A stretch of DNA of 64,000 nucleotides from NCBI GenBank assembly GCA_964518165.1, contig CAZFFN010000086.1, forward strand, positions 6,408 to 70,407. The letters run 5' to 3'. A program made the position numbers and the translations under genes. The notes below the pieces were generated by a model that saw nothing but the letters and a program-made list of their open reading frames with translations, did no database searches and was not told where the DNA came from. Of the stretch, positions 16,549-34,688 are shown piece by piece. The DNA comes from an uncultured Thermoplasmatales archaeon (GTDB taxonomy: Archaea; Thermoplasmatota; E2; DHVEG-1). Within the stretch, counting starts at the first letter, position 1, and each line of letters opens with the position of its first letter.

Positions 16549-16554
16549 ATATCT

Positions 16555-17778: not shown

Positions 17779-18188
17779 ACTACCTAATCTCCTCTCAGAT
17801 ATAGTAGATGCTTTAACAAATTACTTTTTAGGCATCCCAATCCAATTATTCCAAATATGTAAGCTATTATTAATTTAATAAAAGTTTCTATTAATTCTTT
17901 TAAATTTTTTTTGCTTTTATTATTTGCTTTCTTTTATTGATATACTCTTTTTGTTTTGCTTTTAATTCCTATGTTTTTTCTACTGTTATTATATCAAAAA
18001 AGATTTTTTTTGTATGGCTTATTTTTACAACTAGGTTTTAAATATGAATAGTGAAATAGGTTAACATGGTAGAGGGTATAAAAATTAGTATATAGTTGGC
18101 CTGGGGGGCTAAAATTCAAAAACTTTTTATACCTTTTAGTACATCTACCATTAATTAGCTTAAGTATAAGCTAGGAGAGAATGGGAAT

Positions 18189-18635
18189 ATGAAAGCAAAT
18201 AGAAAATTTAAAGAAGATGGTGAGGCAGTTTCAGCTGTTATTGGTGTAATTTTAATGGTCGCTATTACAGTTGCAATAGCTGCTACAGTGTACGTATATG
18301 TTAGTGGAATGTTAGGTGATCAACCTTCAGGCAATGAAGATGCAGTGGTTACTATGTCATCCTCAGGAAAAAACATAAAACTACTTTTAACAACAGGTGG
18401 AAATAATATACCAGATGACGGATACACAGATTATAGTATAATGATAAATGGTACAGCAATAGGGGATGATAATGTTGTTGGTGGTGATGTAGATGCTGCT
18501 TGGGATGTTGGCACAAGCATTTATGTTGAACAAACTTCTGAGGATGATGCTTTAGTCCCGGGTGTTGACTATGATGTTACCGTAAAAATATTGGAAACAG
18601 TTGTTTTAGATAGTTCTATAGAAGTTAAAGCTTAG
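18189..18635 (+). CDS. Archaeal type IV pilin (probable major pilin)
   Basis: EA/VSAVIGVILMVAITVAIAATVYVYV (Pilin_N motif); RBS GGAGAG; TATA-like TTTTTATA near 18124. Confidence 0.93.
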   Translation: MKANRKFKEDGEAVSAVIGVILMVAITVAIAATVYVYVSGMLGDQPSGNEDAVVTMSSSGKNIKLLLTTGGNNIPDDGYTDYSIMINGTAIGDDNVVGGDVDAAWDVGTSIYVEQTSEDDALVPGVDYDVTVKILETVVLDSSIEVKA

Positions 18636-18718
18636 TCAATTATAAAAAAACAACATATCTTCTTTTTTTTTTGATTTTTATTCTTGTTTTATAAATTTTA
18701 TATTTATGTTAGTTAAAG

Positions 18719-19134
18719 TTATGCGAAATAACAATAACTCTTCCCATCCTTCTTATCAACTCTAATAAAACCACTTCTCTCAAGTTTTTTAACGTTATAA
18801 CTAACAGTCTGCTGCTTTTCACCTAAAATCTTTGTAAGTTCAGTCTGAGCAATACCATCATTTTTCTTAACTAGATCTAATATTTTAGACTGAAGACTAG
18901 TAAGCCTCTTTTTTTCTTTCTCAGGTAATTTACCTTGAGAAATATAAAAAGCTCTATACCTAAGACCCTTTTTTCTAGATTTGATTATATCCATCTTTTC
19001 AAGCATTCTCAAGTGATGTGAAATTGTACCATTACCAACACCAACATTTTTCATAATATTAGTATAATAAGCACCAGGATTATTTTCAATATAATTATAA
19101 AAATCTCCTCTAACTTCTTGATCTAAAGCTTCAT
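18719..19134 (-). pseudogene. Tandem winged-HTH transcriptional regulator, apparent 1-nt frameshift just after the start
   Basis: GTISHHLRMLE and QTELT..QQTVSYNVKKL helices; coding frame extends to 19132, but the RBS-linked ATG at 19134 is out of frame. Confidence 0.6.
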
Positions 19135-19315
19135 TTTATTATTATCTCCTAAGTAACTAATAGTACGATACTTTTAGAAATTTTTATGCGGATAATTCCC
19201 AAATAAGGAATTATCTGGACAAAAAAATCTACTTTTTTTAAATTATAAAAAACAACCCTGATTTTATCACTATCTTAATATCACACTTTTTGTTTACAAA
19301 TAAATGGTTTAGAGG

Positions 19316-20032
19316 ATGGAAACTATAACAATTCTTGATAGTTTAAGGCTAATAATAGGAGTAACAATACTAGCTTATGCATCTTATACAGATATAAAAA
19401 CACGGATGGCATCTAATTATCTATGGGTAATAATGGGTCTTTTAGGTACAGTACTTCTTTTAACTCATTACTTTTTAGTTGGATTTGATAATATCTATAT
19501 GCTTCTCTTTATCCCAGTAATGATAGGTTTAGTATACTTATTCTTCCAACTAAGGCTAATCTTTGGAGGAGCAGATGCAAAAGCATTAATGGCCCTAGCA
19601 ATACTAGTTCCAGTACAACCAAATATAAACAATCTACCAATATGGGGAGAATCACTAATGCCAGGCGTGTGGCAGGTTTTTTCAAACTCAATTATCTTAT
19701 TTTTATTTATACCCTTGAGTCTTTTAGTTATAAACATTCTAAAAAGAAATTTTAGCATTCCACATATGTTCTTAGGTTACAAAATGAAAATTAGTACTGC
19801 CCGAGAAAAATTTGTGTGGCCACTTGAAAAAATAGTTGAAGGAAAAAGAAAATTTGTATACATGCCAAAAGAATTTGACATAGAAAAAGAACTAAACACT
19901 TTTGAAAAAAACAATATCGATGAAATATGGGTTACACCAAAGATCCCTTTTATGATACCACTTTTAGGTGGAGTTATAGTTACATTTTTCTTTGGCGACA
20001 TTCTATTTTATTTGATGAATGTACTTATCTAA
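19316..20032 (+). CDS. Prepilin/prearchaellin peptidase (A24, FlaK/PibD type)
   Basis: SYTDIKTR, FGGADAKAL, C-terminal WVTPKIPFMIPL. Confidence 0.93.
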   Translation: METITILDSLRLIIGVTILAYASYTDIKTRMASNYLWVIMGLLGTVLLLTHYFLVGFDNIYMLLFIPVMIGLVYLFFQLRLIFGGADAKALMALAILVPVQPNINNLPIWGESLMPGVWQVFSNSIILFLFIPLSLLVINILKRNFSIPHMFLGYKMKISTAREKFVWPLEKIVEGKRKFVYMPKEFDIEKELNTFEKNNIDEIWVTPKIPFMIPLLGGVIVTFFFGDILFYLMNVLI

Positions 20033-20114
20033 AATCTTAAAACTAAACTAGTAATATGATTATTTACTATTGTTTAGAAAAGTATTTAAAAAGTTGTTTC
20101 TTTAATTTATAAAA

Positions 20115-20540
20115 ATGATGAAATATTATACTATAGATAAAGAAAAAAAAGAAAAAATTCAAAATAAATTAGAATATATTTTAAAAAAAGAAAATGAAAT
20201 CATTTTTTCTTATCTGCACGGTTCTTTTTTAAAAAAAAGATTTAGAGATATAGATATTGCTATCTATTTAAAGAAATCTATTTCAAATAAAAAAATATTG
20301 AAATATGAACTTTATCTAGAAGAAAAAATTAGTGGAGAACTAAATTATACTTTTGATGTCAGGGTCTTAAATAATGCGCCGTTATCCTTTAGATTTTCAG
20401 TTATAAAAAATGGAATAGTACTTTTCAGTAAAGATGAAGTTAAAAGATCAGATTTTGAATGCCTTTCTTTTGTTAAATATCATGATTTTGATTTTTACAG
20501 AAATAGATACATGAGGGATGCTCTTGGGATTAAAGTTTGA
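20115..20540 (+). CDS. Minimal nucleotidyltransferase (MNT antitoxin)
   Basis: YLHGS...RDIDIA motif, LNNAP. Confidence 0.9.
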   Translation: MMKYYTIDKEKKEKIQNKLEYILKKENEIIFSYLHGSFLKKRFRDIDIAIYLKKSISNKKILKYELYLEEKISGELNYTFDVRVLNNAPLSFRFSVIKNGIVLFSKDEVKRSDFECLSFVKYHDFDFYRNRYMRDALGIKV

Positions 20541-20952
20541 TAAAAATAAAGTTACAAAATTATCATCAAAAATAAATGAGGCTCTTGACAGACTTCATGA
20601 TCTTTCTAATCTTGAAAAAAATTCATTCTTGTCAGATCCATACAAATTAGCTAGTGCAAAATATTTTTTAATCGTTGCAATAGAAGAATCGATTGATATG
20701 TGTAATCATTTGATTTCCATGAATAAACTAAGAGCTCCTGAGGATTACTCTGATACTTTTAGAGTACTTGAAGAGCAGGGTATGTTTAAAAAAAATTTTG
20801 TAAAAAAACTTGTTGAAATGGCTAGGTTTAGAAATAGACTTGTTCATATTTACTGGGAAGTTGATGACGAATTAATTTATAAGATAATCTGTGAATATAT
20901 CAAGGATATCGAAGAATTTATTGAAAAGTTTACAAATTATATTAGTAGTTGA
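20518..20952 (+). CDS. HEPN/DUF86 ribonuclease toxin
   Basis: FRNRLVHIY Rx4H motif; overlaps the MNT gene. Confidence 0.92.
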   Translation: MLLGLKFDKNKVTKLSSKINEALDRLHDLSNLEKNSFLSDPYKLASAKYFLIVAIEESIDMCNHLISMNKLRAPEDYSDTFRVLEEQGMFKKNFVKKLVEMARFRNRLVHIYWEVDDELIYKIICEYIKDIEEFIEKFTNYISS

Positions 20953-21031
20953 TTAATTATTTACTTTAAATTACATGATTTAACTTCATAAATATCATAT
21001 ACTACCTCCCTTTTTACAATTTTCTTGAATT

Positions 21032-22120
21032 ATGGCTAAAAAAGACTACTATGACATACTCGGCGTAGAAAAAGATGCATCTAAATCAGATATAAAAAAA
21101 GCATATAGAAAACTTGCTTTAAAATATCATCCAGATAAAAATAAAAGTAAAGATGCTGAAGAAAAATTCAAAGAAATATCTGAAGCATATGCAGTCTTAC
21201 ATGATGATGAAAAAAGACAGATGTATGATCAATACGGTCACTCTGGAATAGATCAACAGTTCAGTAGAGAAGATATCTTTAGAAACGCTGATTTCGGAGA
21301 TATTTTTAGAAACATGGGCTTTGGTTTTGATATAAATGATATCTTCAATGAGTTCTTCGGCGGGCGCAGAGGATATAGGAGAAGACAGAGAAGAGCCCGC
21401 GGTGCAGATCTTCGATATGACATGCAGATAAACCTTGAAGATGCATATAAAGGCATAGAGACAACCATAAGAGTACCACGTACTGAAACTTGTGAAGAAT
21501 GTAACGGATCTGGTGCAAAGAAAGGAACAAGTCCAAAGACTTGCCCTAAATGCAATGGCACTGGACAGATGAAAACAAGCCGAAGAACAGCTTTTGGAAT
21601 GTTCACTCAAGTTTCAGCCTGCAATAAATGTGGTGGTGCTGGAAAGATTATTGATAAGCCGTGTCCAGAATGTAGAGGAAAAGGAACTGTACAAAAGACT
21701 AGAGACATAGAAATAAAGATTCCATCAGGTGTTGATGATGGATCACAATTAAGACTATCTGGTGAAGGAGAAGCAGGACCCGGTGGAACAGGTGATCTGT
21801 ATATAGTAGTTCATGTGAAAAACCATCCAAAGTTCAAAAGGCGACATTTAGATTTATACACCTCAATAGATATTTCCTTTCCAGAAGCAGCGCTTGGTAC
21901 AAAAAAAGAAATACAAACAATAGAGGGAAAAACTGAGGATATCAAAATTCCAAAAGGCGTTCAAAACAATGAAATAATAAAAGTTAAAGGAAAAGGCATG
22001 CCTGATGTGAGAAGTAGATTTAGAGGAGACTTGCTTGTAAATATCAAGATAAAAACACCTGAAAAAATATCTAGAAAAGCAAAAAAATTACTTGAAGAAC
22101 TAAGAGACGAGCTAAAATAA
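21032..22120 (+). CDS. dnaJ: Chaperone DnaJ
   Basis: J-domain HPD, G/F region, four CxxCxGxG motifs. Confidence 0.98.
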
Positions 22121-22181
22121 AGGAAAATATTTAAATAATATTAAAAATAAATAAGTTTGAAATTGTAAGGGAGGTAAATAT

Positions 22182-22757
22182 ATGATACCAGATGATGAAG
22201 ACAGAGATAAAAGAAAAAAACGACGTAATAATCCATTTGACATGTTTGGATTTGATGACGATTTTATTAAAGATCTCTTTGATGATGACAGAATCAAAGA
22301 AGATATAAAAAGAATGACTGAAGAAATGATGAAAATGTTTTCAAATGTTCAACCCGGTAAATCATTTGTACATGGATACAAGATAAACATAGGACCTGAT
22401 GGAAAACCTAGAATTGAAGATTTTGGAAATAAAACCAAAAAATCACCTGAAGGTAAATCATCAATATCTGAAGAAAGAGAGCCAATCACAGATATAATCG
22501 AAGGAGATAATGATGTAGCAATAACCGTTGAAATACCAGGTGTTGAAAAAGAAAACATTGATTTGAATGTTACTAGAGACACACTTGAGATAGATGTTGA
22601 TTCACCAAATAGAAAATATCATAAGAAACTTGATCTACCATGTGATGTTAAACCAAAGACTACAAAAGCTACATACAAAAATGGGGTACTAGATATAGTA
22701 CTAAAACGTAAATCAAAAAAGAAAGAAGGCGAAGGATATCATGTAGACATCGAATAA
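22182..22757 (+). CDS. hsp20: Archaeal small heat-shock protein Hsp20
   Basis: EREPITDI, EIPGVEKENI, ATYKNGVLDI. Confidence 0.93.
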   Translation: MIPDDEDRDKRKKRRNNPFDMFGFDDDFIKDLFDDDRIKEDIKRMTEEMMKMFSNVQPGKSFVHGYKINIGPDGKPRIEDFGNKTKKSPEGKSSISEEREPITDIIEGDNDVAITVEIPGVEKENIDLNVTRDTLEIDVDSPNRKYHKKLDLPCDVKPKTTKATYKNGVLDIVLKRKSKKKEGEGYHVDIE

Positions 22758-22853
22758 TTTTTTCTTCTTTTTTTATTTAATTACAAATAAAATCTTATTA
22801 TTAATATTTAATAGGGGAAATATTTATATACCAAATCTCTATGTCCCTAACCT

Positions 22854-22921
22854 AAGGATGGGGTAACTATTACCTACTATTCATTTTATCACATCATTTT
22901 ATTTTTTAAAACCCCATCCTT
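22854..22921. repeat. Perfect 11-bp inverted repeat AAGGATGGGGT/ACCCCATCCTT
   Basis: Arms at 22854-22864 and 22911-22921, AT-rich 46-nt loop. Confidence 0.9.
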
Positions 22922-22948
22922 TCACACCCCACAAAAAAAATAAAAATA

Positions 22949-23419
22949 TTATTTGACAAGATTGCCAAATGTTTTTTTCAAAATCGTTTTTACATCACTT
23001 GAGTTGATGCTAGTGAATTTAAAGGTTTCTTTACCATTGCTCCACTTAATTCGAATTTCATTAGGTCTTCTTTTCTCATCTGAAAAATTCATATAATTCT
23101 TGATTCTAATTTTTTTAACCTCATTAACTGATATACTATAATTATTAGGATTTTCATTTAATATGTTTTCAACAGGCATAGAATAATATTTTTCATGGAT
23201 GTTTCTAGATGATGTCATAGTATTAGCCCAACTTTTTAAAAAACCTGCGCCCTGTGATTTTGATTGCTCACGCGCCTTTTTAGCTTCTTCTTTGATCATT
23301 TCACTAGTTAAGGTTGCTACGATTAAACGATTGTTTGTAACAACTAAGTTGTATGCTTTCTGGCCTAAAAAACCTGCATTAGTGTTTGGAATAATTCCTA
23401 CAATTTCTTCAGATGTCAT
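22949..23419 (-). CDS. Hypothetical protein (possibly PH-like fold)
   Basis: 156-aa ORF; beta-rich pattern (YNLVVTNNRLIV). Confidence 0.7.
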   Translation of the reverse strand: MTSEEIVGIIPNTNAGFLGQKAYNLVVTNNRLIVATLTSEMIKEEAKKAREQSKSQGAGFLKSWANTMTSSRNIHEKYYSMPVENILNENPNNYSISVNEVKKIRIKNYMNFSDEKRRPNEIRIKWSNGKETFKFTSINSSDVKTILKKTFGNLVK

Positions 23420-23693
23420 AGCTTTAGTGTATAAATATTTGATATATAAAAGTGGGCTTAGCCTAACTAAATATATATTACAGAAAGAATTACTTTGGGT
23501 TAAAAAACGAATTTATGACAAAGATAAAGATCTGTGGGTTTCACTTTACAAATAATAAATAGAAATCCATCATTTAACTAGAATAGTTTGATTTGTATTA
23601 TTGCAGATATTTAATATAAATAAATTAATTAATACTTTTAATTACCTCTCTTGACAAACTATTTATAATATATTCGTTGATTTAAAAAATGAG

Positions 23694-24536
23694 ATGTTAA
23701 TTAACAGACAAAAGTGTCTATACTACTTTATTAAAAGGATAAATGAATGTTCAAAATTAAACTTAGCAAAAATATTTTTTACAATATCAAAAGAAAGTAA
23801 CATAAATCAAAATTTCAAATTTTACAATTTTTTACCCTATAAATTTGGACCATATTCATTTGAACTTTTTCATGACCTTGAAAAATTAGAAGAAGAAAAA
23901 ATTATAAAAACAGATGAAAAACAAATAAAATTTTTAGGTGAAAATAATAAAATACAAATCCCAGAAACAATATCTAATAAAGTAGATCATTTCATAAAGA
24001 ATTTTTCAGAAATGAATGAAGATGAATTAATAAAATATGTTTACAATCGTTATCCTGAATATACAATTTTCAGTAAAATCGAAAAAAGGAAAAAATATCT
24101 TCGAGATCAAAAAGGTATTTATACAATAGGATACGAAGGAAAATCAATAGATGAATTTTTGAATGAACTAATACAAAATAAGATTGAATATCTTATTGAT
24201 GTTAGAAAAAATCCATGGAGTATGAAATTTGGATATAAAAAATATCAATTAAAATCATTAACTAACAAAATTAACATAAAATACAAAAACATGCCGGAAT
24301 TAGGTATACTAAGTGAAAAAAGAAAGGACCTTGATAGCAAGGATGATTACAAGAAATTACTTGGAGAATACTCTAAAAATTTAATACAGAAGAATAATGA
24401 AATAAATTTTTTGAAAAAATTAGCTGAAAAACGTAAAACAGCATTGATGTGCTTTGAAAAAAACCCAGAGATGTGTCATCGGAGAATCCTTGGTGAAAAA
24501 TTGATGGATCTTGGAGCCGAGGTGACGCTTAATTAA
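23694..24536 (+). CDS. DUF488-family protein fused to N-terminal SocA/Panacea(DUF4065)-like domain
   Basis: YKFGPYSFEL in the N-domain; IYTIGYEG, LIDVR, LMCFE..P..CHR in the C-domain. Confidence 0.85.
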   Translation: MLINRQKCLYYFIKRINECSKLNLAKIFFTISKESNINQNFKFYNFLPYKFGPYSFELFHDLEKLEEEKIIKTDEKQIKFLGENNKIQIPETISNKVDHFIKNFSEMNEDELIKYVYNRYPEYTIFSKIEKRKKYLRDQKGIYTIGYEGKSIDEFLNELIQNKIEYLIDVRKNPWSMKFGYKKYQLKSLTNKINIKYKNMPELGILSEKRKDLDSKDDYKKLLGEYSKNLIQKNNEINFLKKLAEKRKTALMCFEKNPEMCHRRILGEKLMDLGAEVTLN

Positions 24537-25305
24537 TTGGGAAAAAAAGAAGGTAACAGTCATAACAAAAGCCTATCCTGAAAAAAGTAGAAAACATGGT
24601 ACTGTAGCATGTACAGCAGGAATTACAGATGATAATAAACTTATACGTATGTATCCAATAGATATGAGACATTTTACAGGAAAAAATAAGATATCAAAAT
24701 TTGATGTTTTAGAAGTCGAATGCAAAAAGGATAATGATAAGTTAGGCAGGAAAGAAAGTTATAAAGTAAGATCAAATACAATCAAACTTCTAAACAAAGA
24801 TCTAAGCAAACCAAAACCTAAATGGAAAGAGAGAAATCAAGTTATTTTACCTAGTTTATCAAATTCTATTCAAGAATTAAAAGATTTATATGAAGAAGAT
24901 AAAACTTCTATGGGAATTATCAAACCAACAGATTTAATAGATTTTATTAAAACAGATAAATTAGAACTTTTTGAAAAGGAAGGTTGGTCATTTACTAAAA
25001 CATTAGACGGAAGAAGAATTCCGAATGTAACCAAGATGCCACATATTTTTAAATATAAATTCAAATGTAAATGTTGCCAGGATAAAATACATGAAATGCA
25101 GTGCGAAGATTGGGAGCTTTTTGAGTCTTATAGAAGTTGGGGAAAAAGATACAAAGACCCTATAATTCTTTGGGATAAACTATATTATAGATTTTACGAA
25201 TGGATGAAAGAAAAACGTAATCTCTATTTGATTATGGGTATGTATTCACAATATCCTACTTGGTTTATTATTGGGTTATACTATCCTCCTAAAAATTTAA
25301 TATGA
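24532..25305 (+). CDS. Conserved hypothetical partner of DUF488; frame extends 5' of the ATG at 24649
   Basis: In-frame WEKKKVTVITKAYPEKSRKHGTVACTAG upstream of 24649; CKCC, EDWE, IIGLYYPPK. Confidence 0.75.
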   Translation: MNWEKKKVTVITKAYPEKSRKHGTVACTAGITDDNKLIRMYPIDMRHFTGKNKISKFDVLEVECKKDNDKLGRKESYKVRSNTIKLLNKDLSKPKPKWKERNQVILPSLSNSIQELKDLYEEDKTSMGIIKPTDLIDFIKTDKLELFEKEGWSFTKTLDGRRIPNVTKMPHIFKYKFKCKCCQDKIHEMQCEDWELFESYRSWGKRYKDPIILWDKLYYRFYEWMKEKRNLYLIMGMYSQYPTWFIIGLYYPPKNLI

Positions 25306-25528
25306 ATTCTAATTCCAAAAAAATTAATTTTTAATTTAGGAATACTTTTACTAATTTCTACAGGATTTTTATAATTAAAGAAATTCTTTCAAATTTTACA
25401 AAATAATCAAAAAATTATATTATTAACTTTAATGACCACTATAGCGCTGAAACACTCTATTAGCCTGGTGTCATGATAGAATGAGTATTATATCCTCAAG
25501 AGAGAATTGAGAATCAATTTGTTATAAA

Positions 25529-25714
25529 GAAAAAGGAAAAATTACTAATAAAGAATATCAAAATGTTTGTAACATTTCAGATAGAACAGCCACTCGGGAA
25601 TTGTCAGATCTTGTCTCTAAAAAGATCGTGAAGAAAATAGGAACAACTGGAAGAGGAACCTCATATATTTTAAGACGTCATAATGCCGACAAAGACGCCA
25701 AAAAGAAGCCATAA
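25529..25714 (+). pseudogene. Remnant C-terminal wHTH of a RecG-C/Schlafen(AlbA_2)-type protein
   Basis: EKGKITNKEYQNVCNISDRTATRELSDLVSKKIVKKIGTTGRGTSY; no start codon, upstream sequence degraded. Confidence 0.65.
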
Positions 25715-25784
25715 TGGCGCCTAATTTGGATTAAATTATTTTTAGAAATTTCCCTAAAAAATTATTTATATTTAGAAATAATAA

Positions 25785-25857
25785 TGGGCTTAGCCGGATT
25801 TGAACCGGCGAACTTCGCCATGTGAAGGCGACGTCATAACCACTAGACCATAAGCCC
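25785..25857 (-). tRNA. tRNA-Val(CAC)
   Basis: GGGCTTA/TAAGCCC acceptor stem; TCGCC-TTCACAT-GGCGA anticodon arm; GGTTCAAATCC. Confidence 0.97.
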
Positions 25858-25996
25858 AAGAAAACAACTATTTCAACTAAATATGATGAATATGTTAAAA
25901 CATTTTCGAAAAAATACCTAAAAAAACAATCTTTTTTAGAAAAAATTTATCAACTAATAGGGTGTTTATATTTTTGTAATAAATAATTTATTATTA

Positions 25997-26563
25997 ATGG
26001 GGGCGTCAAATTATATGTCACTTTTAGACATTTTCAAGAAAAACAAAAATGAAAAAAAAGAAGAACAAAACAAAGAAATGCAAGTAGAAGAAAAACAGGT
26101 AGCTGAAGAGCCCGTAGAAACAGAAGTAATTGCTGAATACAATGAAACACTAGAAACCACTTCAAAAAATAAAAAATCACAAAAAAAAGTAACTCCAAAA
26201 GATGAATACATATGGCGAGATGTAGATGCCATTGAAGAAAACATAGATAACCTACATATAAAAACTGCAAAAAAACCATCAAATAAACTAGATAAAAAAG
26301 TAGACACTATTATAGAAAAAACAAAAAAGAAACATATTAGAAAACCATCAAATGTAATCTATGTTGTAAGTAAACCTCAACCAGGACAAGTTCGAGGTGA
26401 CTGGGCTGTAAGAGGACATAAAAAGATATACAGCCATCATCGTAAAAAGGAAAACGCTATAAAAAACGCTAGGGAAATAGCAAAAAAAAGAGACGCAACT
26501 GTTATGGTACAAAATACTGATGGTACATTCAGTGATGGATTCAAACCAAGATCAAAAAAATAA
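25997..26563 (+). CDS. DUF2188-like domain protein with long charged N-terminal region
   Basis: GDWAVRG...AIKNAREIAKKRDATVMVQNTDG. Confidence 0.75.
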   Translation: MGASNYMSLLDIFKKNKNEKKEEQNKEMQVEEKQVAEEPVETEVIAEYNETLETTSKNKKSQKKVTPKDEYIWRDVDAIEENIDNLHIKTAKKPSNKLDKKVDTIIEKTKKKHIRKPSNVIYVVSKPQPGQVRGDWAVRGHKKIYSHHRKKENAIKNAREIAKKRDATVMVQNTDGTFSDGFKPRSKK

Positions 26564-26585
26564 TTTTTTTTTTATTTGTGTTTAA

Positions 26586-27104
26586 ATGACAGCGGTTCTA
26601 AGAATAGGTCATAGAATACCTAGAGACAAAAGAATAACAACACATGTAGCACTCGTAGCCCGTGCTTTTGGTGCAGATAAGATATATATAGATAAAAAAG
26701 ACAAAAAAATCGAAGAAACAATACGCTCAACATGTGAACGTTTTGGAAAAGGTTTTAAAATAGAAACAGGTGTTAATCCAAGAAAAATAATTAAAGAATG
26801 GAAAGGGATTGTAGTACATCTCACAATGTATGGAGAAAAATTAGATACATTTATTGAAAAAAATGTTGATGAAGATATATTAGTAATAGTTGGTGCAGAA
26901 AAAGTACCTTTTGAAATATATGAACTAGCCCATTACAATATATCAATTGGAAACCAGCCACATTCTGAAGTAGCAGCATTAGCAATTTTTCTAGACAGAA
27001 TCAAAAAAGGAGAATGGGTAAACAAAGAATTTTTTGGAAAAATGAAAATATTACCTAGTAATTCAGTAAAGAAAGTAATATCTGAGGACCAAGTACATGA
27101 ATAG
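26586..27104 (+). CDS. trm56: tRNA (cytidine-56-2'-O)-methyltransferase aTrm56
   Basis: LRIGHR..RDKRITTHVALVARAFGA, VHLTMYG, IGNQPHSEVAALA. Confidence 0.96.
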   Translation: MTAVLRIGHRIPRDKRITTHVALVARAFGADKIYIDKKDKKIEETIRSTCERFGKGFKIETGVNPRKIIKEWKGIVVHLTMYGEKLDTFIEKNVDEDILVIVGAEKVPFEIYELAHYNISIGNQPHSEVAALAIFLDRIKKGEWVNKEFFGKMKILPSNSVKKVISEDQVHE

Positions 27105-27618
27105 GATTCCTACATCTAGTGAATGCATAGAATACTTAAAAAAAGCAGGATGCTCAAATGCTGTAATAGAACACTGCAAAGCAGTTAGAGACTATGCAGT
27201 AAGAATTGCAGAAAAGGCTGATGCAGATATAGAACTAGTAAATGCAGGAGCTCTTTTACATGATATAGGTAGATCAAAGACACATAGTATAAATCATGTG
27301 CTTGAAGGTGTAAGAATCGCTAAGAAATTTGGGCTTTCTGAAAAAGTAATTAGAATAATTGAAAGACATATTGGAGCAGGAATAACTAGCGAGGAAGCAG
27401 AAAAACTAGGTCTACCTCCTAACAACTATATTCCGGTGACTCTTGAGGAAAAAATAGTCTGTCATGCTGATAACTTGATTCAACGTGGTAGAAAACAAAG
27501 TGTTGAAAAGGAAGTTAAAAAGGCTCTAAAGAAAGGAAACAAAGAGTTTGCCACACGCTTAGTTGATCTGCATAAAGAACTAAGTAATATCTGTGGAATA
27601 GATATAAGTGATATCTAG
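27097..27618 (+). CDS. HD-domain phosphohydrolase (TIGR00295-like)
   Basis: ALLHDIGRS, RHIGAG, EEKIVCHADN. Confidence 0.9.
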   Translation: MNRIPTSSECIEYLKKAGCSNAVIEHCKAVRDYAVRIAEKADADIELVNAGALLHDIGRSKTHSINHVLEGVRIAKKFGLSEKVIRIIERHIGAGITSEEAEKLGLPPNNYIPVTLEEKIVCHADNLIQRGRKQSVEKEVKKALKKGNKEFATRLVDLHKELSNICGIDISDI

Positions 27619-27803
27619 TCTTACAGTACATCCGAATGTAAAAAAATGAGAAAGAAAACAGATTTATAAGAAGTAAAAATACTCTTAGAACAATCACTTT
27701 TAAAGGTTTTATCTTTATTTTTCTGAGAAAGAATAGTATTTTTCTCATTTTTACTAAGTTTTACATCAAAAACAGGTGATATTTCAGTATAAATCATCTA
27801 TTG

Positions 27804-28115
27804 TTATTGATATCCTTTTCCTCGAATAAAAAACATAGTAAGTATTATGGTTTTATTTGTTTCATCTATCTCATATACTAATCTATATTTTCCTAATCTT
27901 AATCGATATACTGATTCTTTTTTTGGAGATATAAGTTTTATATCCAGTTTTGGGTGTTTCTTATGAGGATCAATCTTTAATTCATCAATAACTGTCTGAA
28001 TATTTGACAATACTGATTTATCTCCACTCTTTAGAATTTTTTTAACATCTTTTAAAAAATTTTTACCTTGAATGATTTTATAAGAATTTGATTTTTTATT
28101 TAGTCCCGATTTACC
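27804..28115 (-). CDS. RelE/ParE-family toxin (start codon unclear)
   Basis: YKIIQGKNFLKDVKK N-terminus upstream of TTG 28010; YRLRLGKYRLVYEID. Confidence 0.85.
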   Translation of the reverse strand, partial: GKSGLNKKSNSYKIIQGKNFLKDVKKILKSGDKSVLSNIQTVIDELKIDPHKKHPKLDIKLISPKKESVYRLRLGKYRLVYEIDETNKTIILTMFFIRGKGYQ

Positions 28116-28352
28116 TCAAGCATCTTTTAATGCATCTTCTATATCATCAGACTCAACATAATCTCCGGCTTTAATTTTTTGCATCCTTTTTTTATGTTCC
28201 TTGAGAACATGATTATAAAATTTCTTTTCTTCAATTTGACTCATAAATTCATTGATGAGGTCATCAAAACTCATGTTGCCATGTTTATAAAGAACAAGTT
28301 TTTCATATGTTTTAGATGTAACATTAATTGTTTTATAATTCATAGTTACCAT
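28116..28352 (-). CDS. Antitoxin, RHH-like N-terminus
   Basis: KTINVTSKTYEKL...SFDDLI; directly upstream of the toxin. Confidence 0.8.
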   Translation of the reverse strand: MVTMNYKTINVTSKTYEKLVLYKHGNMSFDDLINEFMSQIEEKKFYNHVLKEHKKRMQKIKAGDYVESDDIEDALKDA

Positions 28353-28377
28353 AACTACTATAGTTATAATAACTATA
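28343..28377. promoter_or_regulatory. Operator-like array of alternating TAGTTA/TAACTA half-sites over the antitoxin start
   Basis: Half-sites at 28343, 28352, 28361 and 28370; 19-bp palindrome at 28359-28377. Confidence 0.6.
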
Positions 28378-28555
28378 AATATTTTTCTATGAATATACCC
28401 GTTTTATCAGTTTTTATCTTTATTTTTCTGAGAAAGAAGGCAGGTAAAATAGAAGAGGTTTCTGAGAAATTTGGAATATTGCTTGATTTAAAAACATTTG
28501 AACCAGAAAAGATAAATATAGTATTGTTTATTTTGCATCTCCTCAAAAGACACAT

Positions 28556-28640
28556 GCAGGGGTAGCCAAGCCTGGCCAACGGCGCAAGGTTGAGGGCCTT
28601 GTCCTGTAGAGGTCCGCGAGTTCAAATCTCGTCCCCTGCA
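28556..28640 (+). tRNA. tRNA-Leu(GAG)
   Basis: GCAGGGG/CCCCTGC acceptor; CAAGG-TTGAGGG-CCTTG; long variable arm; GAGTTCAAATCTC. Confidence 0.97.
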
Positions 28641-28789
28641 TTTTTTATTAATTCAAATTTTTATAAAACTATCAAACCCTAATTTTAAAGGAAAATGTTT
28701 TAAAATTGTCTACATTAACTGACAGAAAATACATATTATTGTCGACTACAATAGAAACACTTATAAATATAAACAAAATACTTATATTT

Positions 28790-30070
28790 ATGCTTGAAGA
28801 AGCAATAAGAAAATGGAATCCTTGGTGGGCAGATGCTGAATCAATAGAAAAACTTTCAGGTGTTAAAAGACACAAAACAAGTAATATAAAAGACACTCTT
28901 GAATTAAAGCAGATAAAAGATGTAATAGGAGTTAGAAGATCAGGTAAAACAACTATTCTATATCAAATTATAAAAATTTTAGAAGAAAAAAAAATAAGTC
29001 CAAAAAATATAGTTTTTTTAAACTTTGATGATACCGAGATAAATGCTGCTCCATTTGATGAAATTATTAAAGCTATTGAAAAAATAAATCCAGAGATTAA
29101 CTATCTTTTTTTAGATGAAATACAACAAAAAAAGGAGTGGGAGAGATGGATAAGGACACTTTATGATACAAATAAATTTAAACAAGTGTTTGTCTCAGGC
29201 TCCTCTGCATCTCTTCTTTCAAAAGATATTGGAAGAGTTTTAACTGGGAGGCATATAACATTTACAGTTTTTCCTTTTTCATTTAAGGAATATTTGGTAT
29301 TTCTTGGTTGGGATGATTTTTCAAAAGATTTTTTAGAATATAATAAAAATAAAATCCTACATCATTTAAGCACCTATATCAAAGGAGGCGGATTTCCTGA
29401 AACAATTGGTAAAGATGAATATCAAAGAAAAATTATTCTCACAAATATTTATAATGATATTCTTTCAAGAGATATTTCTGCTAGATATAACGTTTCATAT
29501 GATATTACAAGAAAAATAAGTTATCATTTGTTAAGCAATAATGGTAAAGAATTTTCTTATAGAAGTATTGCTAATGCAGTAGATGTAAGTGTTGAAACAG
29601 TCGAAAAATATTTAGAATATCTCAAAGAATCTTTTATTATATTAACACTAAATGTTTTTTCATATAAAACCAAAGTTCAATTTAAACAAAATAAAAAAAG
29701 TTATAGTATTGATACCGGTCTTAGAAACGCTGTTTCTTTTAGATTTACAAAAGACTTAGGTAGACTTGCAGAAAATATTGTTTTTTTGGAACTTTTAAGA
29801 AGAGGAAAAGATGTATTCTTCTGGAAAGACAAAAAAAATCATGAAGTTGATTTTGTAATAAAAGAAGGATTAAAACCGGCTAATTTAATTCAGGTCTGTT
29901 GGGATATTAAAAAAGAAAAAACAAAAAAACGAGAAATAGATGGTTTACTATCTGCTATGGATACTTTTAACATTAAAAAAGGTATAATTCTTACTGAAGA
30001 TTATGAAGAAATTATCAGACACAATAAAAAAACAATCAAATATATACCTATTTGGAAATGGTTATTATAA
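28790..30070 (+). CDS. AAA_14 + DUF4143 ATP-binding protein
   Basis: GVRRSGKT, FLDEIQ, SGSS, GGFPE, YSIDTGLR, HEVDFV. Confidence 0.93.
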   Translation: MLEEAIRKWNPWWADAESIEKLSGVKRHKTSNIKDTLELKQIKDVIGVRRSGKTTILYQIIKILEEKKISPKNIVFLNFDDTEINAAPFDEIIKAIEKINPEINYLFLDEIQQKKEWERWIRTLYDTNKFKQVFVSGSSASLLSKDIGRVLTGRHITFTVFPFSFKEYLVFLGWDDFSKDFLEYNKNKILHHLSTYIKGGGFPETIGKDEYQRKIILTNIYNDILSRDISARYNVSYDITRKISYHLLSNNGKEFSYRSIANAVDVSVETVEKYLEYLKESFIILTLNVFSYKTKVQFKQNKKSYSIDTGLRNAVSFRFTKDLGRLAENIVFLELLRRGKDVFFWKDKKNHEVDFVIKEGLKPANLIQVCWDIKKEKTKKREIDGLLSAMDTFNIKKGIILTEDYEEIIRHNKKTIKYIPIWKWLL

Positions 30071-30156
30071 AGATATAATAAATATAGTAAATATGGTATA
30101 TGTATATATACAAATTGATGTTGTTACTCCTTTGGAAGTTGTCGATTATAAATAAC

Positions 30157-30276
30157 TTGAAAAATAATTCATTAAAATGGATTCATAAAATAAGAGAAGA
30201 ACACTATAAAAAAACAAAAGATAAAAATTTGAAGGATATTATTAAAGATAGTGTAAAAAAGGCGAAAACTTCTTAA
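30157..30276 (+). CDS. 39-aa basic small ORF (MKNNSLKWIHKIREEHYKKTK...)
   Basis: TTG start, helical pattern, follows a PIN-like C-terminal remnant. Confidence 0.4.
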   Translation: MKNNSLKWIHKIREEHYKKTKDKNLKDIIKDSVKKAKTS

Positions 30277-30407
30277 ATTTTGCATTTTTAATAACTGAAT
30301 TGATATTTTTAGCTAAAAACTTACAACAGAAGAATATCATATTATTTTAAAGATAAAAGTAATTTTAAATTTTGTCCCCTGCATTTTTTATTAATTAAAG
30401 AATAAAA

Positions 30408-30791
30408 TTATGGAACAATTAACTTATTGATATCCATTTTTTTATTTGTGTTAAATAGTCTGTACATCTCTTTTATTCTCTCTGCTTTGCCTTGTAAGAC
30501 AAATATTTCAAGACATTTTTCTTTTTCAAAATGGCTGTGTATTTGGGTTTTTGTAATATCTTTAAAATTATGTTTAATTTCTGAAACTTCACTTTCTGAA
30601 TCATGATTATGAATAATAATTAGAATAGAATTTATTTCTCCAAATAATTTTTCAGTATCTTTACTTTCTGAAATTAAAAGTCTTACCCCTGCTCTTATAA
30701 CTTCTGATCTACCTGAATATCCATATTCATTTTGGATTTTTTCAATATCTTTTAGTATATTTTCATTTAATGATATGCTGATTATCGCCAT
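30408..30791 (-). CDS. nikR: NikR-family RHH metal-responsive regulator
   Basis: IISISL...YSGRSEVIR; ligands KHNF...IHSH...KCLE. Confidence 0.9.
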   Translation of the reverse strand: MAIISISLNENILKDIEKIQNEYGYSGRSEVIRAGVRLLISESKDTEKLFGEINSILIIIHNHDSESEVSEIKHNFKDITKTQIHSHFEKEKCLEIFVLQGKAERIKEMYRLFNTNKKMDINKLIVP

Positions 30792-30803
30792 AGATTTCAA
30801 TAA

Positions 30804-30865
30804 TTAATAACATGTTTATATACTTGACCATAAAAGTTAATAATAAAGTATATAACTGTTATTAA
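30804..30865. promoter_or_regulatory. Divergent promoter with inverted repeats (candidate NikR operator)
   Basis: TTAATAACA (30804)/TGTTATTAA (30857) and TTATATACT (30816)/AGTATATAA (30847). Confidence 0.55.
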
Positions 30866-30891
30866 CAATGACTTTGCGTGGGGAGAATTAT

Positions 30892-31803: not shown

Positions 31804-31865
31804 ACACAATAATTAATTATATCCGCAAACTATTTTCATAAAAAAATAAGGAGCATATCTTTCAA

Positions 31866-32645: not shown

Positions 32646-32651
32646 AATAGT

Positions 32652-33515: not shown

Positions 33516-33600
33516 AAATTTATTTTTACCACTTAAATAAAGTTCAGATCTCACCTTTTGCATTTTTTATTTCATCTAGAATATTGAAAATATCTTTTAT

Positions 33601-34590: not shown

Positions 34591-34688
34591 ATGCCTCCCT
34601 CAAAACAGATAAATAATAAGTATACTAGGTATTAATAATTTATCATGTATCAATCGATTTCTAATAAAAAAAGGAAAAAATGAATTTT

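What the first reader, a model, noticed from the sequence alone, without database searches (positions are those of the whole stretch)
23694..25305. Two-gene candidate defence/nucleic-acid-damage system: Panacea-like-DUF488 fusion plus unnamed partner
Seen: gene 1 fuses a SocA/DUF4065-like domain (YKFGPYSFEL) to DUF488 with the C.E...CHR motif. Gene 2 overlaps its end and carries KAYP..S.K.G..ACTAG, RMYP, CKCC and EDWE. The pair is the only intact cargo of a tRNA-anchored island. Knowledge: DUF488 has been placed in the rhodanese-phosphatase superfamily and linked to conflict and nucleic-acid-modification contexts; Panacea domains are antitoxins. Inference: an uncharacterised anti-virus or TA-like module, with gene 2 possibly an OB-fold or Zn-binding effector.
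Basis: partly seen in the sequence, partly recalled or inferred. Interest (0 to 1): 0.75.

Follow-up and report, generated by a model that had tools for sequence, protein, structure and literature searches.

The report
Mobile DUF488–double-OB candidate defence gene pair
This is a real, tightly coupled two-gene cassette from an uncultured archaeon, pairing a phosphatase-like enzyme with a DNA-binding-type protein; it belongs to an already catalogued but never tested class of candidate anti-virus systems, so it is a good test case, not a new kind of system.

Summary
Gene 1 (23694-24536, 280 aa) is a DarG-C/Panacea-like N-domain fused to DUF488. Gene 2 (24532-25305, 257 aa) is a tandem-OB "DuOB" protein.

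Gene 2 has no canonical start codon. It begins at ATT, overlapping gene 1's TAA. That ATT is conserved in four genomes.

PADLOC names the pair PDC-M19A/B (E 6e-78 and 4e-50). PDC-M19 is an untested "phage defence candidate" found by guilt-by-embedding.

- **Linkage:** in 51 of 57 measurable loci the two genes overlap by 4 nt (NTGA).
- **Fusion:** one DUF488-DuOB fusion protein exists.
- **Context:** the pair sits inside type I R-M operons, on conjugative plasmids, and beside the immunity repressor of temperate Gordonia phages.
- **Mobility:** only 23617-25306 is shared with two relatives that carry it in other contexts.
- **Island:** an 11-nt repeat of the tRNA-Val 3' end brackets the pair and one gene remnant. 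There is no integrase.

My best reading is that DuOB targets single-stranded nucleic acid or DNA ends for the Cys-dependent DUF488 phospho-enzyme, as a conflict module. A DarTG-like toxin-antitoxin reading remains open.

Verdict: a new member of a known, uncharacterised kind. Interest is moderate.

The parts
23617..25306 (+). Mobile cassette: about 77 nt of upstream control region plus both genes
   Evidence: blastn: L002 shares only window 23617-25306 (88.8% nt) and L009 shares only 23619-25295 (72.6%). Both carry it in unrelated genomic contexts.
23662..23669 (+). TATA-box-like TTTATAAT centred about 28 nt upstream of gene 1's ATG. This suggests a leaderless or near-leaderless archaeal transcript (inference).
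   Evidence: Read directly from the sequence. It lies inside the stretch conserved with L002 and L009. There are no RNA data.
23694..24110 (+). Gene 1 N-terminal domain (residues 1-139), related to DarG C-terminal / SocA-Panacea (DUF4065)
   Evidence: Pfam SocA_Panacea E 0.003 for the window protein, with 10 of 57 homologues hitting it, best 1.7e-5. PADLOC DarG model positions 169-260, E 4e-6. NCBIfam DarG positions 183-269, E 3.4e-6. Foldseek 7yk3_B, the chain named DNA ADP-ribosyl glycohydrolase (DarG) in the DarTG complex: prob 1.0, TMt 0.44. A phage protein annotated Panacea: TMt 0.60.
24111..24536 (+). Gene 1 C-terminal DUF488 domain with invariant GYEG, DxR, S..K, R210 and C253-F-E...C261-H-R263; stop codon TAA at 24534-24536
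   Evidence: Pfam DUF488 94.9 bits and DUF488-N3a 28.5 bits. Invariant columns in 57 homologues. AF2 pLDDT 93.2; fold neighbours are PTP-fold phosphatases, tetrapyrrole/diphthine methylases and RapZ.
24519..24525 (+). Shine-Dalgarno-like GAGGTGA, 6 nt upstream of gene 2's start and inside gene 1's coding sequence
   Evidence: A GAGGT-type element is conserved at the same distance in about 30 homologous loci.
24532..24534 (+). ATT (AUU) start codon of gene 2, overlapping gene 1's TAA in the sequence ATTAA
   Evidence: Homologues have ATG, TTG or GTG at exactly this aligned position. ATT is found there in the window, L001, L002 and L009. In L002 and L009 an in-frame stop directly precedes it. 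The next 39 codons are conserved, with mostly synonymous change in the close pairs.
24532..25305 (+). Gene 2: DuOB (dual OB-fold) protein, 257 aa, PDC-M19B
   Evidence: PADLOC PDC-M19B E 3.7e-50. Pfam DuOB 16 bits for the window protein and 29.2 bits for homologue P0045. AF2 pLDDT 91.6. Foldseek matches tandem-OB DNA binders. The family has 2275 clusters.
25328..25332 (+). Oligo-T run 23 nt after gene 2's stop; a possible archaeal terminator (inference)
   Evidence: Sequence only. The cassette homology with L002 and L009 ends at the stop codon.
25511..25714 (+). Start-less 67-codon remnant of a winged-helix C-terminal domain (decayed gene)
   Evidence: Six-frame translation. Pfam DIP2311-like_C E 9e-5, below its cut-off. 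The region is absent from an X3 contig that joins 25322 to 25785.
23453..23463 (+). Left copy of the 11-nt direct repeat TGGGCTTAGCC (att-like)
   Evidence: 2 matches in the window against 0.01 expected. Both copies are also present in syntenic L001.
25784..25858 (-). tRNA-Val(CAC). Its 3' end (25785-25795 on the + strand) is the right copy of the repeat.
   Evidence: ARAGORN and the repeat search.

Best explanation
The locus is a self-contained, horizontally mobile two-gene operon of the PDC-M19 / DUF488-DuOB type.

Shown:
- The two genes are translationally coupled. An SD-like element lies inside gene 1, and the stop and start codons overlap.
- Gene 1 carries a DUF488 domain of the rhodanese-phosphatase fold with an invariant C...CHR site, preceded by a DarG-C/Panacea-like protein-binding domain.
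- Gene 2 is a tandem-OB protein with an invariant Cys27/Arg39/Arg73/Glu75/Ser76 and Asp193-Trp-Glu195 constellation.
- The pair travels together through archaea, bacteria, plasmids and temperate phages. It is often embedded in type I restriction-modification operons.

Inferred mechanism:
- DuOB recognises single-stranded nucleic acid or DNA ends of an invading or replicating element.
- It delivers, or activates, the Cys-dependent DUF488 enzyme, which adds, removes or transfers a phosphate-linked group on the nucleic-acid terminus and so blocks replication or packaging.
- The N-terminal Panacea-like domain tethers or restrains DuOB.
- In this lineage the weak AUU start keeps DuOB sub-stoichiometric to its partner.

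The net role is defence against viruses or other mobile elements.

Confidence differs by layer. Identity as PDC-M19/DUF488-DuOB is about 0.95. A conflict or defence role is about 0.55. The specific targeting-plus-end-modification mechanism is about 0.35. The confidence value entered for this explanation is a blend of these.
For: Identity:
- PADLOC PDC-M19A E 6e-78 and PDC-M19B E 3.7e-50.
- Pfam DUF488 and DuOB.

Physical and functional coupling:
- A gene 1 homologue lies immediately upstream on the same strand in nearly all of 64 loci.
- There is a 4-nt NTGA overlap in 51 of 57 loci.
- P0383 is a natural DUF488+DuOB fusion; its DUF488 part matches gene 1's profile at hhalign probability 99.6%.
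- The association persists without the N-domain and in convergent orientation, in a Pseudomonas plasmid and in Gordonia phage Nymphadora.

Nucleic-acid binding: gene 2's model (pLDDT 91.6) best matches Teb1 AB, the RPA-DNA filament, HIN-200 DNA sensors and the Oxytricha telomere end-binding protein.

Enzyme: DUF488 has invariant Cys/His/Arg residues, and its fold neighbours are PTP-type phosphatases and RapZ.

Conflict context:
- hsdR-[pair]-hsdS-hsdM on one strand in L019, L055, L039 and in six contigs of the P0073 clade.
- Neighbours are otherwise unconserved, and R-M, HepT/MNT, PIN, ParE and HicB families are among those that recur most often.
- 23 plasmids carry a homologue, 11 of them conjugative.
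- In phage Nymphadora the DuOB gene directly follows the immunity repressor.
- PDC-M19 was defined by embedding in BREX, DISARM or type I R-M systems.

Mobility: only 23617-25306 is shared with L002 and L009.
Against: - No member of the family has been tested, and no paper reports a phenotype.
- No transcription data exist for this organism.
- The Foldseek matches are weak (E about 5e-4, TM 0.26-0.44), so 'ssDNA or DNA-end binding' is a fold-level inference.
- The substrate of DUF488 is unknown, and no DUF488 chain appeared among the solved-structure matches.
- In one complete genome the pair sits among metabolic genes.
- The conserved acidic, Cys and Arg residues of DuOB could mean it is itself an enzyme or a toxin, not a targeting subunit.
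- The Panacea/DarG-like domain fits a toxin-antitoxin logic at least as well.
Confidence: 0.5

Rival explanations
1. A DarTG-like toxin-antitoxin pair. DuOB is the toxin: it sequesters or chemically modifies single-stranded DNA or RNA. Gene 1 is a two-function antitoxin. Its Panacea/DarG-C-like domain binds and neutralises DuOB, and its DUF488 domain enzymatically reverses the damage. Defence, if any, would work by abortive infection when the antitoxin is lost.
For: - The N-domain matches DarG's C-terminal region in three libraries and in the solved DarTG complex. It also matches Panacea.
- Panacea domains neutralise many unrelated toxins by direct binding, and that paper describes DarG as both removing a toxic DNA modification and binding DarT (PMC8832971).
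- The gene order is antitoxin-like first and toxin-like second, with overlapping stop and start codons.
- Gene 2 has weak start codons: 26 of 57 loci use a non-ATG start, and this clade uses AUU.
- DuOB has an invariant Cys/Arg/Glu/Ser/Asp constellation that looks catalytic.
- TA modules surround the locus.
Against: - The DUF488-DuOB pairing holds where the N-domain is absent and the genes are convergent.
- A natural fusion of the two exists. This is unusual for antagonists.
- Both proteins are larger than classical type II TA components.
- Panacea membership is below the Pfam cut-off.
- No toxicity data exist.
Confidence: 0.25
2. A module that serves the mobile element carrying it, not the host. 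It would protect or process the element's own single-stranded or terminal DNA during transfer, integration or replication. This would be an anti-restriction or maintenance function.
For: - Homologues are found on conjugative plasmids of Sulfolobus, Saccharolobus, Rhizobium, Pseudomonas and Streptomyces.
- On pSOG2 the homologue lies next to a tyrosine integrase.
- It is present in temperate Gordonia phages.
- tRNA genes lie within 2.5 kb in 6 of the closest archaeal loci.
- An att-like repeat is present here.
Against: - In the phage the DuOB gene sits directly after the immunity repressor on the same strand, suggesting prophage expression and not early lytic or transfer expression.
- It is embedded on the same strand inside host type I R-M operons.
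- It is very rare in viral contigs: 1 hit in IMG/VR.
- The window copy has no mobility genes around it.
Confidence: 0.1
3. A housekeeping DNA/RNA-end repair pair with no role in conflict.
For: - The phosphatase-like fold plus OB folds would suit end-processing.
- In one complete Thermoplasmata genome the neighbours are metabolic genes.
- The window neighbours include DnaJ, an sHSP and aTrm56.
Against: - The distribution is patchy.
- The cassette is transferred as a 1.7-kb unit between different contexts.
- There is no conserved neighbourhood.
- It is enriched on plasmids, in a prophage and inside R-M operons.
Confidence: 0.07
4. The window copy is decaying. Gene 2 lost its start codon, and only a truncated 218-aa product from ATG 24649, or nothing, is made.
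For: - No ATG/GTG/TTG exists upstream of 24649 in frame.
- Gene callers annotated the 218-aa form here and in L001 (P0001, P0003).
- One X3 contig has a 1-nt deletion at 24641.
- A decayed gene lies next door.
Against: - ATT sits at the exact homologous start position in four genomes down to 60% protein identity. It keeps the SD element, and in L002 and L009 a stop codon directly precedes it.
- The 39 upstream codons keep family-invariant residues (P16, S19, C27, G30, R39). They differ by 8 synonymous against 3 nonsynonymous codons between the window and L002.
- A product starting at M40 would lack three strands of OB1.
Confidence: 0.05

Closest known systems
PADLOC phage defence candidate PDC-M19 (Payne et al., bioRxiv 10.1101/2024.01.29.577857; cassette CAS_00089, FAM_02799>>FAM_02993)
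   Same: Both proteins match the PDC-M19A and PDC-M19B models over nearly their full length (E 6e-78 and 3.7e-50). The gene order and strand are the same. Archaeal homologues show the embedding in type I R-M that defined the candidate.
   Different: The window copy is not embedded in an R-M system. It sits by a tRNA gene among housekeeping and TA genes, and gene 2 starts with AUU. PDC-M19 itself is untested, so the name conveys no mechanism.
DUF488-DuOB systems of the RapZ-C/DUF488/DUF4326 clade, rhodanese-phosphatase superfamily (Burroughs & Aravind 2023, NAR Genom Bioinform lqad029). The paper's existence and title are confirmed. Its content is recalled from memory, because the paper is not held.
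   Same: Gene 1 hits the Pfam models DUF488 and DUF488-N3a, and gene 2's family hits DuOB. As I recall, these models stem from that work. Fold neighbours of the DUF488 domain are PTP-fold phosphatases, diphthine/tetrapyrrole methylases and RapZ, as that classification proposes. As I recall it, the paper predicts DNA-end processing in virus-host conflict.
   Different: I could not check whether the paper describes the Panacea/DarG-C-like N-terminal fusion, the archaeal clade or the phage immunity-region copies. No biochemical activity is known.
DarTG toxin-antitoxin / anti-phage system
   Same: Gene 1's N-domain is related to the DarG C-terminal region in sequence models and in the solved DarTG complex. 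Like DarG, gene 1 joins that domain to a small enzyme domain, and its partner is predicted to act on single-stranded nucleic acid.
   Different: There is no macrodomain and no DarT ADP-ribosyltransferase. The domain order is reversed. The partner is a tandem-OB protein. This locus is not a member of DarTG.
PanAT (Panacea/DUF4065 antitoxin-toxin) pairs and SocAB (Kurata et al. 2022, PMC8832971)
   Same: It carries the YxFGP motif and a helical domain that resembles Panacea. It is a two-gene overlapping operon that is mobile and has variable partners.
   Different: The window protein scores below the Pfam cut-off. The domain is N-terminal to an enzyme domain, not a stand-alone antitoxin. The DUF488-DuOB link does not depend on it.
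Tandem-OB nucleic-acid binders: RPA/Teb1, Oxytricha TEBP-alpha and HIN-200 (AIM2/IFI16/p204) innate DNA sensors
   Same: They share the overall two-OB architecture.
   Different: The similarity is at fold level only (identity 8-14%, TM 0.26-0.44). DuOB has its own invariant Cys/Arg/Glu/Ser and D-W-E residues and a helical insert.

Membership tests
PADLOC PDC-M19 | Protein A matches a PDC-M19A model | tested here: met
   PDLC04505: E 6e-78, residues 3-273 against model positions 2-284 of 294.
PADLOC PDC-M19 | Protein B matches a PDC-M19B model | tested here: met
   PDLC04508: E 3.7e-50, residues 2-252 against model positions 3-263 of 269.
PADLOC PDC-M19 | A and B are adjacent, on the same strand, in the order A then B | tested here: met
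   Gene 1 is 23694-24536 and gene 2 is 24532-25305, both on the + strand. The same arrangement is found in 55 or more related loci.
PADLOC PDC-M19 | Confers protection against phages or viruses | not testable with these tools
   It is listed as an untested candidate. No paper mentions PDC-M19.
Pfam DUF488 (PF04343) | Score above the gathering threshold | tested here: met
   94.9 bits against a cut-off of 22.2, residues 151-269. All 57 homologues hit the model.
Pfam DUF488 (PF04343) | Conserved Cys...Cys-His-Arg active-site motif | tested here: met
   C253, F254, E255, C261, H262 and R263 are invariant in 57 sequences.
Pfam DuOB (PF22557) | Score above the gathering threshold | tested here: inconclusive
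   The window protein scores 16.0 bits against a cut-off of 27 (E 0.013). Homologue P0045 (60% identical) scores 29.2 bits. 5 of 60 homologues hit at E <= 0.01.
Pfam DuOB (PF22557) | Two OB-fold domains | tested here: met
   The AF2 model (pLDDT 91.6) has two beta-barrel segments. The best PDB matches are tandem-OB proteins.
SocA/Panacea (DUF4065, PF13274) antitoxin domain | Score above the gathering threshold | tested here: not met
   18.8 bits against a cut-off of 25.7. 10 of 57 homologues hit at E <= 0.01, best 1.7e-5. A structural match to a Panacea-annotated phage protein gives TMt 0.60. This is a remote relative, not a demonstrated member.
SocA/Panacea (DUF4065, PF13274) antitoxin domain | Neutralises an adjacent toxin by direct binding | not testable with these tools
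   Needs co-expression and pull-down experiments.
DarTG | DarG macrodomain plus a DarT ADP-ribosyltransferase partner | tested here: not met
   Only the DarG C-terminal region matches (PADLOC model positions 169-260, NCBIfam positions 183-269; 26.6 bits against a cut-off of 250). The partner is an OB-fold protein.
tRNA-integrated genomic island | Direct repeat of the tRNA 3' end at the distal border | tested here: met
   The 11-nt TGGGCTTAGCC occurs at 23453-23463 and 25785-25795, against 0.01 expected. Both copies are also in L001. The repeat is short.
tRNA-integrated genomic island | Integrase or recombinase gene inside the island | tested here: not met
   Between the repeats there are only the two genes and a wHTH remnant.
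tRNA-integrated genomic island | Related genomes with an empty site | tested here: inconclusive
   No empty site was found. L001 is syntenic. L002 and L009 carry the cassette elsewhere. Variants at the tRNA flank exist in X3 and X6.

The most novel reading that the evidence does not exclude
DuOB is not a passive binder. It would be a new kind of OB-fold effector that marks or traps single-stranded DNA or DNA ends through its invariant Cys/Arg/Glu/Ser and D-W-E residues. Gene 1 would be its DarG-style two-function keeper: a Panacea-like clamp plus a DUF488 'eraser'. That would make this a previously unrecognised writer/eraser immune module. It would be widespread in archaea and shared with plasmids and prophages, with DuOB dosage set by coupled initiation at a weak codon (AUU in this clade).
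Probability: 0.2. Interest if true: 0.75.

Novelty: new member of a known kind. Interest (0 to 1): 0.42.

Why it matters
- **DUF488 has no known function.** It is a widespread domain. As I recall, E. coli YeaO belongs to the family; I did not check this here.
- **A compact system to work on.** The DUF488-DuOB pair is genetically compact and strictly linked, so a substrate could be found with it.
- **Tractable places to test the candidate.** This survey adds archaeal R-M-embedded copies, plasmid copies and, above all, a temperate Gordonia phage with the pair beside its repressor.
- **Archaeal immunity.** If the pair defends, it extends the poorly known archaeal immune repertoire.
- **Start-codon usage.** The conserved AUU start is a clean natural case of non-canonical, translationally coupled initiation in archaea. 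It also shows how gene callers truncate such genes.

Tried and rejected
1. **Homopolymer frameshift.** TTG at 24537 followed by an A7 run (24542-24548) could have restored a canonical start after a 1-nt error. I rejected this. Homologues align to the ATT frame from residue 1. ATT recurs in L001, L002 and L009. Independent metagenome contigs show no indel there.
2. **Programmed +1 frameshift making a gene 1-gene 2 fusion.** I rejected this because a stop codon lies directly before ATT in gene 2's frame in L002 and L009, and no slippery site is conserved.
3. **Zn knuckle (C179-x2-C182...H187...C191) as the core of gene 2.** Across 128 family representatives only C179 (0.86) and H187 (0.89) are common. 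C182 and C191 fall below 0.8.
4. **Link between the wHTH remnant (25511-25714) and the AlbA_2/HATPase_c_4/Fic-like_C gene that follows the pair in L039.** BLASTP finds nothing.
5. **P0280 (446 aa) as a second DUF488-DuOB fusion.** Its N-terminus does not match DUF488.
6. **Reading Burroughs & Aravind 2023.** The paper is not held, so I use its content only as marked recollection.
7. **Expression evidence.** Only DNA metagenome runs hold the locus.
8. **Sigma-70 promoter and terminator scan.** It is uninformative for an archaeon and not above the shuffled expectation.
9. **Solved structures by sequence.** No solved DUF488 or DuOB relative appeared at useful E-values.
Full report
**What is there**

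The window is low-GC DNA, about 20-38% in the profiled 15000-35000 stretch. It comes from an archaeon: it encodes aTrm56 and an archaeal prepilin peptidase. The nearest public relative is an uncultured Thermoplasmatales MAG, which matches gene 2 at 96% protein identity and the surrounding DNA at about 75-89% nucleotide identity (L001).

Gene 1 is 23694-24536 (+, 280 aa).
- Residues 151-269 are a clear DUF488 domain (94.9 bits) and also hit DUF488-N3a.
- Residues 44-118 hit SocA_Panacea weakly (18.8 bits, below the 25.7 cut-off).

Gene 2's reading frame contains KAYPEKSRKHGTVACTAG, RMYP, CKCC and EDWE.

**The start of gene 2**

The mechanical ORF list starts gene 2 at ATG 24649. Gene callers did the same here and in L001, giving 218-aa products (P0001, P0003).

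However, 232 homologues, mostly 254-280 aa, cover 99-100% of a query that includes the 36 upstream codons. Their M/L-T-W-E-K-K N-termini align on window I-N-W-E-K-K. That places the start at ATT 24532.

Supporting details:
- ATT lies 6 nt after GAGGTGA (24519-24525) and shares one base with gene 1's TAA.
- At the same aligned position the other loci have ATG (31), TTG (13) or GTG (10), and the same SD-like element precedes them.
- L001, L002 and L009 have ATT, although L009's gene 2 is only 60% identical.
- In L002 and L009 an in-frame stop directly precedes ATT.
- The next 39 codons differ between the window and L002 by 8 synonymous and 3 nonsynonymous codons. They retain residues that are invariant across the family.

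I therefore read gene 2 as 24532-25305 (257 aa), initiated at AUU by coupling to gene 1's termination. I considered and rejected an A7 homopolymer error and a +1 frameshift fusion.

**Linkage**

A scan of one genome per species returned 64 loci:

| Group | Loci |
|---|---|
| Thermoplasmatota | 21 |
| Methanotrichales/Methanosarcinales | 17 |
| Methanomicrobiales | 10 |
| Unspecified "Methanobacteriota" | 4 |
| Asgard | 4 |
| DPANN | 3 |
| Unclassified archaea | 2 |
| Bacteria | 3 |

- A gene 1 homologue lies immediately upstream on the same strand in nearly all of them.
- In 51 of 57 measurable loci, stop and start overlap as NTGA. In the ATT clade they overlap as ATTAA or ATTAG.
- A profile search of 1.84 billion representatives finds 2275 clusters for gene 2's family.
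- One of these, P0383, is a DUF488+DuOB fusion. Its DUF488 part matches gene 1's profile at 99.6% probability.
- In a Pseudomonas conjugative plasmid and in Gordonia phage Nymphadora, a short DUF488 protein without the N-domain is convergent with and overlaps the DuOB gene.

The conserved core is therefore DUF488 plus DuOB. The N-terminal domain is an addition typical of the PDC-M19A clade.

**Structures**

Gene 2 folds confidently (pLDDT 91.6, pTM 0.89) into two beta-barrel segments with helical inserts. Its best PDB neighbours are tandem-OB nucleic-acid binders: Teb1 AB, the RPA-DNA filament, HIN-200 domains of p204/p205/IFI16, and the Oxytricha telomere end-binding protein. The scores are weak (E about 5e-4 to 1e-2, TM 0.26-0.44). 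This agrees with the Pfam model DuOB ("Dual OB-containing domain"). The window protein misses that model's threshold, but the 60%-identical P0045 passes it.

Across 128 diverse representatives the near-universal residues are P16, S19, C27, G30, R39, P42, R73, E75, S76, D193, W194, E195, G236 and P252. The CxxC is not universal.

Gene 1 also folds confidently (pLDDT 93.2).
- The C-terminal half resembles PTP-fold phosphatases, tetrapyrrole/diphthine methylases and RapZ.
- The N-terminal half resembles the DarG chain of the M. tuberculosis DarTG complex (7yk3_B, prob 1.0, TMt 0.44).
- A Panacea-annotated phage protein also matches the model (TMt 0.60); I attribute that match to the N-terminal half.
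- PADLOC and NCBIfam DarG models independently hit residues 10-108 at E about 4e-6.

**What it is called**

PADLOC-DB models PDC-M19A and PDC-M19B match the two proteins at E 6e-78 and 3.7e-50.

PDC systems are 145 untested "phage defence candidates". They were derived from cassettes embedded inside BREX, DISARM or type I R-M systems. PDC-M19 is cassette CAS_00089 (FAM_02799>>FAM_02993), listed with the number 174, which I take to be its count.

As I recall, the Pfam entries DuOB and DUF488-N3a/N3i come from Burroughs & Aravind 2023. I could confirm only that the paper exists and could not read it. From memory, its abstract predicts DNA-end processing in virus-host conflict for this clade.

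No paper in the library tests PDC-M19, DuOB, or DUF488 in defence.

**Context**

The two genes on either side of the pair in 32 loci gave 128 ORFs that hit 108 different Pfam families, so there is no conserved third gene. The families seen in three ORFs each were type I R-M components (ResIII, EcoEI_R_C, Methylase_S), HepT, and the general helicase models SWI2_SNF2 and DEAD. Families seen twice included N6_Mtase, HsdM_N, HicB, PIN and ParE, alongside unrelated ones such as Carboxyl_trans and PKD.

- The pair is embedded as hsdR-[pair]-hsdS-hsdM on one strand in L019, L055 and L039.
- It is embedded the same way in six contigs from different samples of a Methanothrix-type clade, where MNT/HepT and a DUF2188 gene also accompany it.
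- In one complete Thermoplasmata genome the neighbours are metabolic genes.
- tblastn finds homologues on 23 plasmids, 11 of them conjugative. These include Sulfolobus islandicus pSOG2, where the homologue lies next to a tyrosine integrase.
- Seven records of cluster CZ1 Gordonia phages carry a homologue.
- In Nymphadora, gp43 (DuOB) directly follows the immunity repressor gp44 on the same strand. gp42, annotated "HipA toxin?", is DUF488 at E 1e-29.
- From my own knowledge of actinobacteriophages, that position is the classic site of prophage-expressed defence genes. The CarolAnn paper used these phages only as attackers.
- IMG/VR holds only one distant hit.

**The local setting**

L001 is syntenic from DnaJ to the AAA_14/DUF4143 ATPase. 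It lacks the MNT/HepT pair (20115-20952) and the ParE-like/VapB-like pair (27804-28352).

L002 and L009 share only 23617-25306 and 23619-25295, in unrelated contexts. So the transferable unit is the two genes plus about 77 nt upstream. That stretch includes a TATA-like TTTATAAT centred 28 nt before the ATG.

The 11-nt 3' end of tRNA-Val is repeated at 23453-23463 (0.01 expected by chance), and both copies are also present in L001. Between the repeats lie only the pair and a start-less wHTH remnant (25511-25714).

Metagenome contigs show further variation exactly at the tRNA end: one contig joins 25322 to 25785 and another joins 25490 to 25785. tRNA genes lie within 2.5 kb of the pair in the window, L001, L002, L007, L008 and L049.

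No integrase is present and no empty site was found. The "island" is therefore a plausible decayed integration, not a demonstrated one.

**Mechanism**

Shown:
- an operon with coupled translation;
- a Cys...CHR enzyme domain of the phosphatase/rhodanese fold;
- a tandem-OB partner;
- obligate association, up to gene fusion;
- a mobile and defence-type context.

Inferred: DuOB binds single-stranded nucleic acid or DNA ends and brings in or activates DUF488, which alters a terminal phosphate-linked group. The N-domain holds DuOB. AUU limits the amount of DuOB made.

The main rival is a DarTG-like toxin-antitoxin logic, with DuOB as the toxin and gene 1 as a binder plus eraser.
- For it: the DarG-C/Panacea homology, the gene order, the weak starts, and DuOB's enzyme-like invariant residues.
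- Against it: the natural fusion, and the N-domain-less convergent pairs.

An element-serving function, housekeeping repair and pseudogenisation are less likely.

**Verdict**

It is a new archaeal member of a catalogued, untested candidate, PDC-M19 / DUF488-DuOB. Its value lies in being a compact route to the function of DUF488, in the tractable phage and plasmid homologues found here, and in the conserved AUU start.

Noticed in passing
window 24519-24536; L001 10007, L002 2557, L009 10001: There is a conserved non-canonical AUU start for gene 2, overlapping gene 1's stop as ATTAA or ATTAG, in four Thermoplasmatales genomes. All other loci have NTGA with ATG, TTG or GTG. Gene callers truncated the protein to 218 aa.
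   Followed up: yes
window 27604-28506 (repeats at 27704-27733 and 28409-28438): A ParE-like toxin (27804-28010, minus strand) and a VapB-like antitoxin (28116-28352, minus strand) lie in a 0.9-kb stretch that is absent from syntenic L001. That stretch carries a 30-nt direct repeat (97% identical) near each end, just upstream of tRNA-Leu. It looks like a TA cassette insertion.
   Followed up: partly
window 20115-20952: An MNT (Polbeta) / HepT toxin-antitoxin pair is present here but absent from syntenic L001. The same kind of pair precedes hsdR next to the DUF488-DuOB pair in Methanothrix-type contigs (L069-L073).
   Followed up: partly
L068 (Gordonia phage Nymphadora NC_031061.1) 3983-5280: gp42, annotated 'HipA toxin, toxin-antitoxin system?', is in fact a DUF488 protein (E 1e-29). 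gp43, annotated hypothetical, is a DuOB protein placed directly after the immunity repressor gp44. The same layout is found in phages Eviarto, BatStarr, TimTam and Herod.
   Followed up: partly
P0383 (409 aa, metagenomic protein): A natural fusion of DUF488 (residues 4-140) and DuOB (residues 152-403). Only one such cluster appeared among the best 150 hits. I could not rule out a gene-calling or assembly artefact.
   Followed up: partly
window 25322-25785 and 24641 (runs X3, X6): An X3 contig joins 25322 directly to the tRNA-Val end at 25785, so the remnant region is missing. An X6 contig replaces 25491-25784 with 213 other letters. An X3 contig also lacks one base at 24641, which would frameshift gene 2's N-terminal part. 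This is either a strain variant or an assembly error.
   Followed up: no
window 25997-26563; L069 7073-7300: A DUF2188-domain protein lies just beyond tRNA-Val in the window. A small DUF2188 gene also directly follows the pair inside the type I R-M operon of L069. This may be coincidence.
   Followed up: no
L057 7457-8961 and 10263-11075: This Methanothrix contig has a second gene 1 homologue about 2 kb downstream of the first pair, which suggests a tandem second copy.
   Followed up: no
L009 versus L003-L008: Divergence is incongruent between the two genes. L009's gene 1 is 69% identical to the window but its gene 2 only 60%. L003-L008 have gene 1 at about 48-55% but gene 2 at 63-68%. Possible explanations are recombination between the two genes or unequal rates of change.
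   Followed up: no
BFVD hits A0A2H4RBN9 and A0A3Q8Q497: Uncharacterised 131-140-aa proteins of Sulfolobus ellipsoid virus 1 and Sulfolobus polyhedral virus 2 are the best viral structural matches to gene 1 (TMt 0.62-0.65). I did not determine which domain they match. Stand-alone DUF488 proteins also occur in Halogranum tailed virus 1 and Bacillus phage CampHawk.
   Followed up: no
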